This document shows, in pieces, positions 1-15,000 of a DNA stretch of 64,000 bases. This DNA comes from Raja brachyura (Eukaryota): assembly GCA_963514005.1 (NCBI GenBank), contig OY740784.1, positions 25,296,001-25,360,000 of the forward strand. Reading direction: 5' to 3'. The first letter of the stretch is position 1, and the number at the start of each line of letters is the position of its first letter. Made by a program: the position numbers.

Positions 1-3000
1 CCTGCACCGCCATTCAATGTGATCATGGCTGATCATCCAACTCAGTATCCCGTACCTGCCTTCTCTCCATACCCCCTGATCCCTTTAGCCACAAGTGCCA
101 CATCTAACGCCCTCTTAAATATAGCCAATGAACTGGCCTCAACTACCTTCTGTGGCAGAGAATTCCAGAGACTCACCACTCTCTGTGTAAAGAATGTTTT
201 CCTCATTTCGGTCCTAAAGGAATTCCCCCTTATCCTTAGACTGTGACCCCTTGTTCTGGACTCCCCCAACATCGGGAACAATCTTCCAGCATCTAGCTTG
301 TCCAACCCCTTAAGAATTTTGTAGGTTTCTATAAGATCCCCCCTCAATCTTCTAAATTCCATCGAGTACAAACCGAGTCTATCCAATCTTTCCTCATATG
401 AAAGTCCTGACATCCCAGGAATCAGTCTGGTGAATCTTCTCTGTACCCCCTCTATGGCAAGGATGTCTTTCCTCAGATTTGGAGACCAAAACTGTACGCA
501 GTACTCCAGGTGTGGCCTCACCAAAACCCTGTACAACTGCAGTAGAACCTCCCTGCTCCTATACTCAAATCCTTTCGCTATGAATGCTAACATACCATTT
601 GCTTTCTTCACTGCCTGCTGCACCTGCATGCCTACTTTCAATGACTGGTGTACCATGACACCCAGGTCTCGTTGCATCTCCCCCTTACCTAATCTGCCAC
701 CATTCAGATAATAGTCTACCCTCATGTTTTTGCCACCAAAGTGGATAACCTCACATTTATCCACATTGTACTGCATCTGCCATGCATCTGCCCATTCACT
801 CAGCCTATCCAAATCACCCTGCAGCCTCCAAGCATCCTCCTCACACCTAACTATACCCCCCAGCTTGGTATCATCTGCAAATTTGGAGATGTTGCATTGA
901 ATTCCCTCGTCCAAATCATTAATATATATTGTGAATAGCTGGGGTCCCAGCACTGAGCCTTGCGGCACCCCACTAGTCACTGCCTGCCATTCTGAAAAGG
1001 ACCCGTTTACTCCTACCCTTTGCCTCCTGTCTGCTAGCCAGTTCTCTATCAATTCTCTATCAATATCAGTTCACTATATCTTCTTGCACATAGTAACCAA
1101 GTCTTTAGCTATTACATGGCACCTATAATCAAACATACACTGTTGTTAACTTCATGGTGCTTTGATTCAATTTTGAGGTTGGTGAAGGTAATCCGTATCA
1201 ATAATAACAATTACATTCTCACTGCAAGTTTAAGCATTGTGGTTTAATCACTGCATGTTTATCCAGAAACAAGCAACAGGTAATTACCAGTAAATAGTAT
1301 GGCCAGTGTAAATTACAGACAAAAATAAAACACTGCTACAAATTTTATCTTTTAAAGAACATAGCATGAATTTCACTAGTCTGATGTCTCCAACCTATGC
1401 ACATTGATAATGGCTTGGTAATGTGTGGCGTTATCACCATTTAAAAAAAGAAACATCTGTGACCACTGTAAAAACCTACACAGATTATATAAACTTCATG
1501 CAACTGAATCTAAGGATCGTGCTAAACGAGCCATTCAAACTATAAACAGATTTATCAAAACAGTTACACATCAAGTACATTGTAAGCAGTTTTGCCTACG
1601 TTTCAATCTTAAAGGAGCACCATATTCATGGAAATTACACAAAACGTTCTAGTAATCCATCTGTCACATGGTAATGTAAATCTCATTGAAAGTGCATCAT
1701 TATGACCGTTGCACTCAACGCTGTCTAGGTAAAAGTGACCGCTGTTCCTCCTAATTTTTTTTCAAAAAAAGACATATGAGCACAAATTTTTCACAAAGAT
1801 TATACACCTTTAAGATTCTGTGGGAAATAATGAGAAAAAGTTATAACTTGAAACAAAATACAATACATTGGCCTCATATTGTTCCTTCATTAAAGAAGAA
1901 TTTCAATACAGGCCAAGGTAAAAACAAAAAGACACTAAGACAAAAAATAAGGACAATGCTAAATATTTTTAGAAGTGAAACAATTGATAAGTGAGAGCAA
2001 GTTACAGCATGAAGAACACAGAATAAGATTTCCTTTACACATTACAACTGAAATCACCAGCTGGAAACTCACTGACCAATGCTCTGCACTGTTAATACAT
2101 CCACATTTGTAAATGTTTTGTGAAGAATTTTGAAAGTGCAATATATTTACTGAGGGGAAAACACTGACAGTACTCAACATCTGTCATGTAAAAGATGGAT
2201 GTTGAGAGCTTTTTGGAATGGACTGGTCACAGACCCTGGTAAAAATAAAGTACAGGCTAAAGCAAGTACATACTGAACAGCCAATGGAGGTTTCAAGAAT
2301 GTTTCACAAGACTTTAGGACATGTCTATTCCAGACACAACACTGAATATTTAAATACATAGTTATACAGATGACTGCAAAATATTACATTGCTAAGAAGA
2401 ATATCAGCTTGTTCCCTCATTCCAGATGATATTAATAATGTGAGTGATATTCTGACAATCGCCAGGCTGCTATGAAATATACCTCCTATGGAAATGGAAT
2501 GTGCTTTGCTTTGACCTCAACAAATAAAACTTTTATTATGAAAGATTATGGTTGACCTCCAAATAAATAATCAATGGGCTGTGAGTTGATGAAAGGATTG
2601 AGGGGGCAAGGCACTGCCTTCTGTACTGAAGCTCTCTTGTCCTCCTTCGCCACTGTTCTCAGGCTCTTGCTGAAGCTGGACGTTTGCCAATTTCTCGTTG
2701 TCGCTGGTTTCGCGAGGAACAGTGAAAGCTCTGGAATAAAGGTGGCTCATAGAGCCAACAGGAAGATATGTTTTGCCTTCAAATATGTCCTCCTTCTCCT
2801 CCACTTCATTCTGGATGCTGGGTGACGGAAATGTGGCACTCTGCTGAAGAAAGTAGCTATTTCTGGTCTCCATTTCCACCAGTCCATTTCCACTGAAACC
2901 GTGGTCAAATTCCAACTCCCCCCATTCCTTTGTCAACTGTTTTGTCCGATTATGTTGCCACCATTCAATGTTTGATAATTGCTTATCGGGTATATGATTG

Positions 3001-12000: not shown

Positions 12001-15000
12001 ATTTATATGGACGTATGTGTTTGAAAGATATGGAGGGAATGGTAGGAATCAGTCCATTTCTCTTCACTCTGAAATTGCTTTCACCTTCGAGGAGCAACAA
12101 CTGAGCTGGGATCACAACGGAAGCAAATTATTAGGACTCTTGTGGATCCCAAAGAGTAGAGTTGAATAAAAACAGATGGTCTGAAATAAGAATTAGTTGT
12201 TATTTGTTAAAGAATGAGCTATCATGCATCAAAGAATGCTGGATGGAACATACAATAAAAGTACACGAAGCTTCAATGGGCCAGCTCATGCAATTAGACG
12301 GAATGAAAGTTGTGGAAGAGAATAAAAAGTATGGATACCTGTGCTGATCAAAGCTTCCTCCATCTTTATTTCCTGATTAGGAAAATACAAGAGTAATTTA
12401 TGTTAATGATTTTAGAACAGTAATATTATTCACATTGTATCTGCCCATGCATTACCTGAGGAAAAATGGAATGTGGTTAAAATAGAAAGGAAAAGTAACC
12501 TTTGACATGAGAAATAACCAAGAGAACATGGCTTAGACATCCAAACTAAAAGGGAGAACACCTTGTTTCATTGTAAACTAGATCAGTTTGGAAAGTAAGC
12601 TGCTGTATATACTTTATCAGCAGTGAAATCATATATATATACACAAGATTATGTTGGTAAATTTTCACTTTGATTGAATGTGTAAAAGGGCTGATAGAAA
12701 AACAGCAGCTTGTATCGATCACTCCTGACCATATTCCCAGTGGCTTCAATAAAAATAAACATTGGGAAAGCTATAAAATGGGCGAGCAGTTTTCCATTAC
12801 CAATCTTGCGTGATCAAATGTCAAAGTTACCTCCTTGACATCACTTGTGTGCCTCATTTTAACCTATTTCAACAATAGGGCGAGATTGATGCTACCAAAT
12901 AACTGTATATATTATTGCACTGAATTGATTTTGCACGGTTTCACTTTCTTAAGAGCCTGTCCCACTGCGGCAACCTAATTTGCGAGGTTAGACGAGTGCA
13001 CTCAATTCAAACTCGCAGCATGGTCGACACATGGTCCTAGGAGGTCACTGCAATTCTCCTTCATGTTCGAGGGACGTTCCCGCCTACTCGCGGCCTCAGT
13101 TTGGTCGAGGAAAATCTTTCAGCATGCTGACAAATTTTCGGCAATTAAAAATTGGTCGGCATGGTTCTTTTGAATTCGTAGTGCAGTGGAGTGGGGTCGC
13201 TATGTAGTTATAGGCAGTCGAGGGCAGCCATATGCAATCTCATTTGCTGACCGGTCATTTTAATTGGCTCATTTAATTGGCTCATCAGAACCAAGGAAAA
13301 CTGACCGGTAATGTTAAATGCCCGCTAAACTTTATTATAAGTTGGCTGGCTTCTTAAAAGTGTCTCCATTCCTTCCCCCCCCCCCTTCTCTCCCTCTAAA
13401 GGACTTACCATAACTGTGCCAGCCGTCTTTTACCTTCCTGTTCATCGCAGGTGTGAATGTCAGACAGCGCTCCCCCGCTTTCCCTGGCCCCCGCCTTTGC
13501 AATGTGTTTGTGCGTGTGTGTGTGTGCGGTCGTTCGATCCAGCTCGCAGTTTCATCGCTGATGGACAATCCACCTCGAGGTTTTTCAGGCGAGTGCCCTC
13601 GAGCTTGAAGGTCGAAGAGTCACTGGAAAATCGCATTATTGGGACAGGCCCTTTACCTTCATATAATTTCCACAAGAGTCATGGAGAGAAACCCATTTTG
13701 GCCCAGTGATTCCACATTGATAGTCAATCACCCTTTTACGGTAATCCTACATGAATCTCATTTTATTTGCTCACATTTTCATCAAACCCCCACCAACCAA
13801 GGCCAGTTTCTTACATTCGCCTACACACCTGGGCAATTTAAAAATATGCCACATTCTTGTTAAAAAGGAGAGCTAAATGAATTTAATGAAATTCTTCATT
13901 AAATTAGCAGCAGAAAATACGTTGACCACTTATTTGTTAAAATGAATCTGATTTCAAGGCTCTTCAATCATTGAAAACTGAACATTGGGATTATTAGTCT
14001 GGATTTGCCGGCTGCTTAAGGGCAAAAAACAAAGGCTTTCAGGAAGTTATCCCAAATCAAAAGTGTCAATGTCAATCGAAAGCTTCTGTGTTCTTTTAAC
14101 TGATTTAAAAAGTGACATTTACATGACTGCTCCCTTGTGGTTAAATGTCTGTAATTATACTTTACCCACTGTTAATAACCATCAACATTTAGATACTGAG
14201 ATGTATGGCAAGAATTAAATATTTTTGAAAATGAAAGCAAAAAATGTAATTTTTAATACCTGACCCAAAAACATAAAGTGGACCAGCAGGTTAAAAAAAA
14301 ACAAGTAATCGTGTGTGTCCAATTCTGTTCTGTTCTGTCAAGTTCCGTATTCTACATTGGACTCTCAAGATAGGATCACCTTTGTCAAAATACAATCTTT
14401 ATGGGGCTTTTGAATAAAGTGTGCTGCAATGTTTTAGTTCATTCCAAATATTTCAGATTCCCATGAGGATTTTGTCTGATAAGAATGAGGAAAAACGAGG
14501 GGATTAATTAAATTTCACTGATGCAAAGAGACCATTCAGGAAAATTGACATATGAGGACAAGACCAGGAATTAATTTAGTTTTATGATTAATTTCACACT
14601 ACGAGGTGAAGGCTCCCTGTGAAGGGAGCTTAGAACAAATCAGTGTGCCCTATGTCATCCGTGAATTACAAGGGTTACCTGTTTCTGCTCCCTTGGTCCG
14701 TGGAGTGCATTGCTTGTGTCCTTGGCAACTTCTTAATTCCATTAGCTGTATGTGCAACTGATTAAGTACTTCCCGATCAACCATGTGTATTGTATTTGTT
14801 AGCTGAAAGCAGAAAACCAAACCAGAATTCAGTTTCCCTTTTCACCAGGGGCTGCAAGAATGAGACACATTACAATATTGTCAAGAATACCATGCCAGAA
14901 CCAAGGATGGTTGTGTTTAACTTTATGAGAGCGGGGGGATCTTTATCTCGATGGACAGATATTGAACGATGGGCAGAATTTGACAGATGAGGAACAAAAT

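What the first reader, a model, noticed from the sequence alone, without database searches (positions are those of the whole stretch)
2571..12372. Dual-frame last exon: a 34-nt exon switches Sulf1 between a 21-aa tail and a hidden 300-aa tail
Seen: including exon 12339-12372 gives GNKDGGSFDQHR-GQLWDGWEG* (stop at 3442). Joining exon 14679-14802 (phase 1) directly to the same acceptor at 3472 gives G-D-S-Y-G-M-D-G-K..., open for 300 codons to 2571 through what would otherwise be 3' UTR. It is the longest non-transposon ORF in the track and lies exactly in the frame that skipping produces. Both stops are in the last exon, so neither isoform should trigger exon-junction-dependent NMD. Inference: this is a real, much longer Sulf1 isoform hidden in the annotated UTR. 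From memory, not checked, other vertebrates have a similar GDSYGMDGKVN... frame and some long predicted SULF1 isoforms, so it may be ancient and annotated in places, but I know of no functional study.
Basis: partly seen in the sequence, partly recalled or inferred. Interest (0 to 1): 0.88.

Follow-up and report, generated by a model that had tools for sequence, protein, structure and literature searches.

The report
Conserved long-tail isoform of skate Sulf1
Skipping a 34-base exon of a skate Sulf1 gene swaps its 21-residue end for a 300-residue acidic tail that is kept from sharks to mammals; databases already predict this form, but no study of its function turned up.

Summary
The window carries the 3' half of a skate Sulf1 gene on the minus strand. 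With the 34-nt exon (12372..12339) the protein ends ...GNKDGGSFDQHR-GQLWDGWEG*. Joining exon 14802..14679 directly to the same acceptor (3472) opens 300 codons, down to the stop at 2573..2571.

The open frame is not chance. It has 1 stop in 300 codons, against 5 to 30 in the other five frames. Codon-position composition matches the core exons. The longest ORF in 200 shuffles was 225 codons, against 337 here.

The tail is ancient and constrained as protein. I examined 112 named non-primate Sulf-1 long forms, from rays and sharks to mammals. They keep the frame, in-frame indels, several motifs and the stop position.

It is not hidden. RefSeq and Ensembl-derived records already predict it, including Amblyraja radiata isoform X2 (98% identical). 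Preussner et al. 2020 described this class of event and list RT-PCR primers for the mouse Sulf1 penultimate exon. Four literature searches found no functional study of the tail.

The tail is acidic (pI 4.2 to 4.9), predicted disordered and not proline-rich. It carries an acid-flanked SG motif in 95 of 98 distinct tails. This looks like a glycosaminoglycan attachment site, which is an untested lead given the known chain on Sulf-2.

The parts
14679..14802 (-). Sulf1 antepenultimate coding exon (124 nt). It starts in phase 0 and ends after 1 extra base. This is the donor used by both isoforms.
   Evidence: AG/GT flanks. Translation [41 protein letters not shown]. Aligns to aa 778-820 of A. radiata Sulf-1 X2.
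12339..12372 (-). 34-nt penultimate exon, the frame switch. Inclusion gives (G)NKDGGSFDQH(R). Its length is not divisible by 3. Its 5' splice site is CAG|GTATCC, with no G at +5.
3442..3472 (-). Dual-coded start of the last exon. The short frame reads GQLWDGWEG plus TAA. The long frame reads (G)DSYGMDGKVN across the same bases.
2571..3472 (-). Long-frame coding part of the last exon: 300 codons (junction G + 299) plus TGA at 2573..2571. In the short isoform this stretch is 3' UTR.
   Evidence: Homologues.
3279..3404 (-). Most conserved tail module (tail residues 23-64, W..LE.LYSV.ES....R.NY.LS..DWTNY.KDVD..FALL). A weak helix is predicted over its end.
   Evidence: Invariant columns in A1. At least 90% conserved columns among 98 distinct tails. 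67% identity between chondrichthyans and tetrapods, against 26% for the rest of the tail. Helix 47-81 at pLDDT 54-62.
2883..2894 (-). Codons of the acid-flanked S-G-N-G motif (tail residues 193-196). Candidate glycosaminoglycan attachment site, inferred only.
   Evidence: Invariant in A1. SG present at this aligned site in 95 of 98 distinct tails. Flanking acidic residues listed.
2610..2621 (-). Codons of the conserved E-G-S-A motif near the C-terminus. It marks the conserved end of the long frame.
   Evidence: Invariant in A1. C-terminal EGSAS.PLS.D-type endings in most groups.
2532..2537 (-). AATAAA hexamer starting 33 nt after the long-frame stop. Candidate poly(A) signal shared by both isoforms.
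   Evidence: One ATTAAA lies inside the ORF at 3260, and the next downstream is at 1248.
12223..12451 (-). Three sense-strand TGCATG motifs around the 34-nt exon: 12451..12446 upstream, 12292..12287 and 12228..12223 downstream. These are candidate RBFOX-type splicing control sites, inferred only.
   Evidence: There are 31 sense-strand matches in 64 kb, so about 0.29 are expected in 600 nt and 3 are seen.

Best explanation
This is the 3' end of a skate (family Rajidae or close) Sulf1 gene. Sulf1 encodes the extracellular heparan sulfate 6-O-endosulfatase. Its last exon is read in two frames.

- **Exon included:** the 34-nt penultimate exon is spliced in and the protein ends 21 residues later (...GNKDGGSFDQHRGQLWDGWEG).
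- **Exon skipped:** the frame shifts by one base at the same acceptor. Translation then runs 300 codons through what is otherwise 3' UTR.
- **No decay expected:** both stops lie in the last exon, so neither mRNA should be a target of exon-junction-dependent decay.

The long tail is a protein-level feature that dates at least to the common ancestor of jawed vertebrates. It is strongly acidic and mostly disordered. It carries a few conserved short motifs: a 40-residue module near its start, an acid-flanked F-S-G-N-G, an EDIFEDQ.YLP stretch and a C-terminal EGSAS.PLS.D.

The anatomy, the constraint and the age are shown here. The function is inferred, at about 0.3. I propose that the tail is a regulated appendage that tunes how the basic hydrophilic domain of the enzyme engages heparan sulfate. 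It could do so by its own negative charge or by carrying a glycosaminoglycan chain at the conserved SG site. That would parallel the chain known on Sulf-2. The TGCATG motifs flanking the 34-nt exon suggest that the choice is set by tissue-specific splicing factors, which is also inferred.
For: - **Anatomy:** canonical AG/GT at all three exons, and frames as stated.
- **Coding signature:** 1 stop in 300 codons versus 5 to 30 in the other frames. First-position A+G is 64.5% and T 16%; second-position A is 37%. The core Sulf1 exons of the window show the same pattern. The longest ORF in 200 shuffles was 225 codons.
- **Homologues:** with the single-exon tail as query, 15 of 15 hits are Sulf-1 long forms. 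With a 9-tail profile, so are all 120 listed of 125 hits (one of them, P0142, is unnamed and carries sulfatase domains).
- **Conserved architecture:** among 112 named non-primate proteins (98 distinct tails) the tail is 258-301 aa, except in cetaceans, whose 222-aa tails are the minimum of the placental range. The C-terminal ending, and so the stop position, is conserved.
- **In-frame indels:** 51 distinct gap blocks in the tail region, with the frame kept.
- **Rate profile (chondrichthyan vs tetrapod identity):** catalytic domain 0.87, hydrophilic domain 0.62, tail module 0.67, rest of tail 0.26.
- **No conserved start inside the tail:** the Met of DSYGMDG is T or K in 13 of 98 tails. The tail therefore depends on being spliced to the upstream coding sequence.
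- **Literature on the class:** frameshifting skipping of penultimate exons that escapes decay is described, and primers flanking the mouse Sulf1 penultimate exon are listed (PMC7392665; abstract, section 5 and methods passages read).
- **For the functional inference:** median pI 4.2-4.9 and net charge -17 to -34, with proline 3.7-7.7%. Mean pLDDT is 40.8. SG is present at the motif site in 95 of 98 tails. Xylosyltransferase prefers GSG > SG > SA with acidic residues at -4/-3, and all mapped sites lie in disordered regions (PMC10424144 passages). Human Sulf-2 carries a CS/DS chain at an SG dipeptide that tunes its activity, while the human Sulf-1 they expressed (isoform not stated in the passages I read) showed none (bioRxiv 10.1101/2021.01.04.425218, abstract and passages).
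Against: - **No RNA or peptide evidence:** no RNA reads or peptides from this animal were available, so the 14679-to-3472 junction is not shown here. The database isoforms are computer predictions.
- **No dN/dS:** no nucleotide sequences of other vertebrates were on hand.
- **Ascertainment bias:** only species whose frame is open get a long-form model.
- **Taxon gaps:** no ray-finned fish, lamprey or Sulf-2 protein appears among the listed hits.
- **Exceptions within mammals and amphibians:** cetacean tails are about 50 residues shorter and end differently. The SG site is absent in 3 of 98 tails, namely two caecilians and Dipodomys.
- **Weak points of the GAG idea:** F rather than G precedes the serine. 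No paper I read reports a chain on Sulf-1. SG-x-G occurs often by chance.
- **An alternative view from the literature:** Preussner et al. suggest that many 3'UTR-encoded tails merely destabilise the protein.
Confidence: 0.8

Rival explanations
1. The skipped mRNA is made and translated, but the tail has no function of its own. It is a disordered, destabilising appendage that lowers the level of mis-spliced or down-regulated Sulf1.
For: Preussner et al. propose this for many 3'UTR-encoded tails (PMC7392665, abstract and section 7 passage). The tail is predicted disordered.
Against: - Their destabilising tails are proline-rich and, for their model gene, lack sequence conservation. This tail has 3.7-7.7% proline.
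- It keeps specific motifs and its stop position across the jawed-vertebrate groups sampled.
Confidence: 0.1
2. The stretch is conserved as 3' UTR RNA (regulatory sites), and the open frame is a side effect. The long-form models are annotation artefacts.
For: The stretch is the 3' UTR of the canonical mRNA. The database long forms are predictions.
Against: - Only one of six frames is open.
- Codon-position composition is that of coding sequence.
- Indels are in frame, with 51 gap blocks.
- The stop position is conserved.
- No Rfam family reaches its threshold in 1100..3700 (two matches at 21 bits, far below gathering).
- An unnamed 1115-aa long form sits on a 4,251-nt contig, which is too short to be genomic for this gene (not fetched).
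Confidence: 0.05
3. The tail is made as a separate 308-aa protein from the exon-included mRNA. It would start at the ATG inside the 34-nt exon (12363..12361, context AAAGATGG), by re-initiation or internal entry.
For: That ATG opens the same frame (MEEALIST + junction + tail). An unnamed database ORF, 97% identical, is called exactly this way (P0174). Several records list the tail alone as an 'uncharacterized protein'.
Against: - The ATG lies far downstream on the mRNA, behind the long main reading frame, and 55 nt before the end of the main stop.
- Those ORF calls come from gene callers, not from evidence of translation.
- Such a product would lack the signal peptide.
- The next methionines in the tail are not conserved.
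Confidence: 0.03

Closest known systems
Predicted 'extracellular sulfatase Sulf-1 isoform X2' of Amblyraja radiata (P0002) and the long Sulf-1 models of other vertebrates
   Same: Same exon junction and the same tail. The tail is 98% identical over 299 residues, and the window's exons map to aa 246-1120. Long forms of 1100-1125 aa occur in birds, reptiles, amphibians, coelacanth and mammals.
   Different: There are 7 residue differences in the tail. The junction residue is G here and E there. The window therefore comes from a related skate or a divergent allele. P0002 also skips the cassette exon that the window holds at about 21716..21630.
Splicing-accessible coding 3' UTRs (Preussner et al. 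2020, PMC7392665)
   Same: A penultimate exon whose length is not divisible by 3. Skipping it moves the stop within the last exon, and no decay is expected. Mouse Sulf1 is one of four genes with splicing-sensitive primers.
   Different: Their typical tails are proline-rich with PxxP motifs, and their model gene's tails share no sequence conservation. This one is acidic, has ordinary proline content, and is conserved in sequence across jawed vertebrates. Their Sulf1 result is not described in the main-text passages I read, and the supplements are closed.
Human Sulf-2 as a proteoglycan (El Masri et al., bioRxiv 10.1101/2021.01.04.425218)
   Same: A paralogous enzyme whose activity is tuned by a polyanionic appendage attached at an SG dipeptide.
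   Different: In Sulf-2 the site lies in the hydrophilic domain of the canonical protein. Here the candidate site lies in an isoform-specific C-terminal tail, and no chain has been shown. The human Sulf-1 they expressed (isoform not stated in the passages I read) had none in their hands.
Short SULF1/SULF2 splice variants of the Dhoot laboratory
   Same: Alternative splicing of the same gene with proposed functional consequences (PMC8999074 passages).
   Different: Those variants lack exons 6, 7, 8 and 18 and are shorter and inactive. They do not involve the penultimate exon or the 3' UTR frame.

Membership tests
Sulf-1 (extracellular heparan sulfate 6-O-endosulfatase) gene | Exons collinear with and closely similar to Sulf-1 orthologues | tested here: met
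   13 tblastn segments cover aa 246-1120 of A. radiata Sulf-1 X2 in order on the minus strand, at 83-100% identity.
Sulf-1 (extracellular heparan sulfate 6-O-endosulfatase) gene | Sulfatase catalytic domain with the formylglycine site and a signal peptide | not testable with these tools
   The window starts at aa 246, so the 5' exons lie outside it. The matching database proteins carry PF00884, PF16347 and PF12548.
Splicing-accessible coding 3' UTR (Preussner class) | [quoted passage not shown] | tested here: met
   The exon is 34 nt, and TAA lies at 3444..3442 in the last exon.
Splicing-accessible coding 3' UTR (Preussner class) | Skipping gives at least 20 new residues, at least 10 of them beyond the canonical stop | tested here: met
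   300 new codons, about 290 of them beyond the canonical stop.
Splicing-accessible coding 3' UTR (Preussner class) | Skipping seen in RNA | not testable with these tools
   No read data were available. Indirect support comes from the predicted isoforms and from an unnamed 1115-aa form on a 4,251-nt contig that I did not fetch.
Splicing-accessible coding 3' UTR (Preussner class) | Typical trait, not defining: proline-rich tail with PxxP motifs | tested here: not met
   Median proline is 3.7-7.7% per group.
Proteoglycan core protein (glycosaminoglycan attachment site) | Ser-Gly with acidic residues just upstream | tested here: met
   The motif is [DE]x[DE]FSG[ND]G..E.E. SG is present in 95 of 98 distinct tails. 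The rule is taken from PMC10424144 passages.
Proteoglycan core protein (glycosaminoglycan attachment site) | Site lies in a disordered region of a secretory-pathway protein | tested here: inconclusive
   pLDDT is below 50 around residues 187-299, but a low score is only a proxy for disorder. Secretion is inferred from the family.
Proteoglycan core protein (glycosaminoglycan attachment site) | A covalently attached chain, sensitive to xyloside or lyases | not testable with these tools
   This needs an experiment. The human Sulf-1 expressed by El Masri et al. (isoform not stated in the passages I read) showed no chain.

The most novel reading that the evidence does not exclude
The long isoform is the proteoglycan form of Sulf-1. 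Skipping the 34-nt exon would add an acidic tail whose SG site, kept in 95 of 98 tails, receives a heparan or chondroitin sulfate chain. The chain or the tail then occupies the enzyme's own basic substrate-binding domain and sets its activity, cell-surface retention and range of diffusion. A splicing switch about 450 million years old (age recalled, from no call) would thus do for Sulf-1 what the constitutive chain does for Sulf-2. This could explain some of the conflicting reports on Sulf-1 activity, which may have used only the short cDNA.
Probability: 0.15. Interest if true: 0.8.

Novelty: already known. Interest (0 to 1): 0.45.

Why it matters
Sulf-1 edits heparan sulfate outside the cell and so shapes Wnt, FGF, Hedgehog and VEGF signalling. 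As far as my searches show, the functional work uses the short protein.

A second form has been kept at least since the common ancestor of jawed vertebrates. It adds about a third to the protein as an acidic, motif-bearing tail. That form is a cheap and direct thing to test: express it and ask whether it carries a sugar chain and whether it changes substrate binding.

The case also bears on the view that 3'UTR-encoded tails are young and unconserved. Here the sequence itself is old and constrained. For genome annotation the point is ordinary, because the isoform is already predicted in many species.

Tried and rejected
- **Pfam on the tail:** only a sub-threshold UPF0489 match (12.8 bits against a cut-off of 27). 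Rejected.
- **PDB sequence search with the tail profile:** 0 matches at E up to 1.
- **ESM Atlas:** no usable hit.
- **AlphaFold2 of the tail with 9 sequences:** mean pLDDT 40.8. I take this as disorder, not as a fold, so no fold search was run.
- **AlphaFold2 of the full A. radiata long form with 32 sequences:** failed. Mean pLDDT was 32.2 and even the sulfatase domain was poor, so it says nothing on whether the tail module packs on the core.
- **Profile search of 1.84 billion representatives:** 53 hits, mostly short unnamed ORFs. I used only the table. It gave no view of Sulf-2, ray-finned fishes or invertebrates, because it carries no names.
- **Rfam on 1100..3700:** two chance-level matches.
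- **dN/dS:** not possible. No vertebrate DNA other than the window was on hand, and the genome collection holds only bacteria and archaea.
- **Literature:** searches for a functional study of the long form and for Sulf-1 in glycoproteomic lists found none. Supplements are closed, and the Preussner tables and figures there may hold the mouse Sulf1 result.

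
Full report
**What is in the sequence**

The minus strand of the window carries the 3' part of a Sulf1 gene. A local tblastn of the Amblyraja radiata Sulf-1 isoform X2 protein (P0002) places 13 collinear segments, aa 246 to 1120, between 58111 and 2574.

- Exon 14802..14679 (124 nt, AG/GT flanks) reads [41 protein letters not shown] and leaves one base over.
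- Exon 12372..12339 (34 nt, AG/GT flanks) reads NKDGGSFDQH between two split codons.
- The last exon begins at 3472, after a long pyrimidine tract and cag.

With the 34-nt exon, the last exon is read as GQLWDGWEG and stops at TAA 3444..3442. Without it, the frame moves by one base and stays open for 299 further codons, to TGA 2573..2571. I translated and searched each exon on its own. I did not build a joined, spliced model of the window for any search.

**Is it more than chance?**

Yes.
- The frame has 1 stop in 300 codons. The other two sense frames have 9 and 30, and the antisense frames 5, 12 and 15.
- First codon positions are rich in A and G and poor in T, and second positions are rich in A. 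The core Sulf1 exons of the same window show the same pattern.
- In 200 shuffles of the window the longest open frame averaged 154 codons and never exceeded 225. Stop to stop, this one is 337.
- The only open frames of similar length in the window are two reverse-transcriptase fragments of retroelements.

**What organism**

The tail is 98% identical to that of the thorny skate protein and 65-78% identical to those of other rays and sharks. The window is therefore from a skate close to Amblyraja. It is not human. One run of N (49439..49579) lies in an intron and was left alone.

**How old and how constrained**

The single-exon tail (P0001) found 15 proteins of 525 aa or more, all annotated Sulf-1. 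A profile of nine tails (A1) found 125, of which 120 were listed. All carry sulfatase domains, and all but one unnamed record are named Sulf-1 or are unnamed-function models of that gene. They come from rays, sharks, coelacanth, caecilians, frogs, axolotl, lizards, snakes, a gharial, some forty-five bird records, marsupials and many placentals. In several species (Latimeria, Strix, Manacus, Sylvia atricapilla) the long form is the only model listed.

I cut the tails from 112 named non-primate proteins of 113. One sheep model with an odd internal structure was dropped, and seven named primate records were left out on purpose. That gave 98 distinct tails.
- Lengths are 296-301 aa in cartilaginous fishes and 258-280 aa elsewhere. 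The exceptions are the cetaceans, whose tails end early with a different ending (222 aa is the placental minimum).
- The last dozen residues (EGSAS.PLS.D and close variants) recur from sharks to mammals, so the stop sits at the same place.
- In a 32-sequence full-length alignment the tail region holds 51 distinct gap blocks, and the frame is kept throughout.

Identity between cartilaginous fishes and tetrapods varies by region:

| Region | Identity |
|---|---|
| Catalytic domain | 0.87 |
| C-terminal domain | 0.84 |
| Hydrophilic domain | 0.62 |
| Tail, 44-residue module near its start | 0.67 |
| Tail, remainder | 0.26 |

This pattern, islands of conserved residues in a fast-evolving but always open frame, is that of a disordered protein region with short functional motifs. 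It is not that of an untranslated region. A formal dN/dS test could not be run, because no other vertebrate DNA was available.

**Is it hidden or new?**

No. The isoform is predicted in RefSeq and in Ensembl-derived UniProt entries for many species. In some annotations the tail even stands alone as an 'uncharacterized protein'.

The mechanism is also in print. Preussner et al. [quoted passage not shown] I read the abstract, section 5 and passages of the methods and other sections. Their methods list primers flanking the penultimate exon of mouse Sulf1. The outcome for Sulf1 is not in the main-text passages I read, and the supplements are closed.

The splice variants studied by the Dhoot laboratory are different. 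They are shorter forms lacking exons 6, 7, 8 and 18 (PMC8999074 passages). Four searches turned up no functional study of the long tail.

**What the tail looks like**

- It has no Pfam family, no relative in the PDB by sequence and no Atlas neighbour.
- AlphaFold2 gives a mean pLDDT of 40.8, with weak helices at tail residues 47-81 and 167-189. I read this as disorder.
- It is acidic. Median pI is 4.2-4.9 and the median excess of acidic over basic residues is 17 to 34, depending on the group. Proline content is ordinary, at 3.7-7.7%. This sets it apart from the proline-rich tails of the Preussner class.
- The conserved motifs are:
  - the module W.GLE.LYSV.ES....R.NY.LS..DWTNY.KDVD..FALL;
  - N.IP;
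  - an acid-flanked FSG(N/D)G followed by E.E;
  - EDIFEDQ.YLP;
  - the C-terminal EGSAS.PLS.

**A lead on function**

SG is present at the FSGNG site in 95 of 98 distinct tails. Two caecilians and a kangaroo rat lack it. A serine-glycine with acidic residues at -2 and -4, in a disordered part of a secreted protein, fits the features of glycosaminoglycan attachment sites summarised by Noborn et al. (PMC10424144 passages).

The paralogue Sulf-2 was shown to carry a chondroitin/dermatan sulfate chain on an SG dipeptide, and that chain tunes substrate recognition and activity. The human Sulf-1 expressed in that study (isoform not stated in the passages I read) showed no chain (bioRxiv 10.1101/2021.01.04.425218, abstract and passages).

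It is therefore worth asking whether the long form is the chain-bearing form of Sulf-1, or whether the acidic tail itself competes for the basic substrate-binding domain. This is inference only. From memory, and from no call, the motif also resembles the heparan sulfate site of syndecan-1.

**The switch**

The 34-nt exon has a good acceptor tract but a donor without G at +5. Small size and a weak donor are usual in regulated cassette exons, which is general knowledge.

Three TGCATG motifs lie on the sense strand within 300 nt of it: one upstream and two downstream, at 47 and 111 nt from the donor. About 0.29 would be expected from the window's own density of 31 per 64 kb. TGCATG is the RBFOX binding motif (general knowledge). 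This suggests tissue-specific control but proves nothing, and I looked at five motifs. Conservation could not be checked.

An AATAAA starts 33 nt after the long-frame stop. If it is used, the long form has a very short 3' UTR, and the short form's UTR is essentially the tail frame.

**Rivals**

- A purely destabilising tail is possible, but it does not explain the conserved motifs.
- RNA-level conservation is contradicted by the single open frame, the codon-position composition, the in-frame indels and the fixed stop.
- A separate 308-aa product is another option. It would start at the ATG inside the 34-nt exon (12363..12361), which is how one unnamed database ORF is called (P0174). This is unlikely, because that ATG lies far downstream on the mRNA, behind the long main reading frame, and the product would not be secreted.

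**What stayed unchecked**

- The skipping junction in RNA of this species.
- Ray-finned fishes, lampreys, Sulf-2 and invertebrate Sulf genes.
- The many unnamed short and long records. I did not fetch these because their origin is unknown and some could be human. One of them is a 1115-aa form on a 4,251-nt contig, which would be a spliced long-form transcript.
- The supplements of the papers cited.

**Verdict**

The feature is real, ancient and under protein-level constraint, but it is already annotated and its mechanism class is published. What remains open, and cheap to test, is what the tail does.

Noticed in passing
window 21630-21716 (-): A second alternative Sulf1 exon encodes SYFNRDKGMRNQGKLKNKNSHLHPF. 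It is present in the window and in the Hypanus and Cetorhinus long forms, but skipped in A. radiata X2 and Scyliorhinus X3. It lies in the basic hydrophilic domain.
   Followed up: partly
window 12361-12363 (-): An ATG in good context (AAAGATGG) inside the 34-nt exon opens the tail frame in the exon-included mRNA (MEEALIST + tail, 308 aa). An unnamed database ORF (P0174, 39 member sequences) is called from it. That shows a spliced, exon-included contig exists for a close skate.
   Followed up: partly
window 12223-12451 (-) and 3559-3564 (-): Three sense-strand TGCATG motifs lie within 300 nt of the 34-nt exon, where about 0.29 are expected. A fourth lies about 90 nt upstream of the last exon's acceptor. 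These are possible RBFOX-type control sites.
   Followed up: partly
window 2532-2537 (-): AATAAA starts 33 nt after the long-frame stop. Only one other hexamer of this kind (ATTAAA at 3260) lies in the 900 nt between the two stops.
   Followed up: partly
window 42-1070 (-), 37424-38437 (+), 23069-23629 (+): Two retroelement reverse-transcriptase fragments (Pfam RVT_1, E about 1e-13) are present. A 186-aa ORF has no Pfam match; by eye it resembles a GIY-YIG-type endonuclease of Penelope-like elements (recalled, not tested).
   Followed up: partly
database proteins P0160-P0166 (cetaceans), not the window: Whale and dolphin long forms end about 50 residues early with a different ending (..HRDQSVHQ). 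They lose the EDIFEDQ.YLP and EGSAS motifs but keep the FSGDG site. This may be lineage-specific decay or remodelling of the tail.
   Followed up: no
window 3472 (-), first base of the last exon: The base is G here, so the junction codon is GGG = Gly. Of the 106 other database tails checked, 104 have Glu at the junction (Gly in Hypanus sabinus and Pyxicephalus), which implies A at this base. The change is silent in the short frame (AGA or AGG, both Arg) but changes the long form.
   Followed up: partly
window 49439-49579: A run of 141 N lies in a Sulf1 intron. It was left as it is.
   Followed up: no
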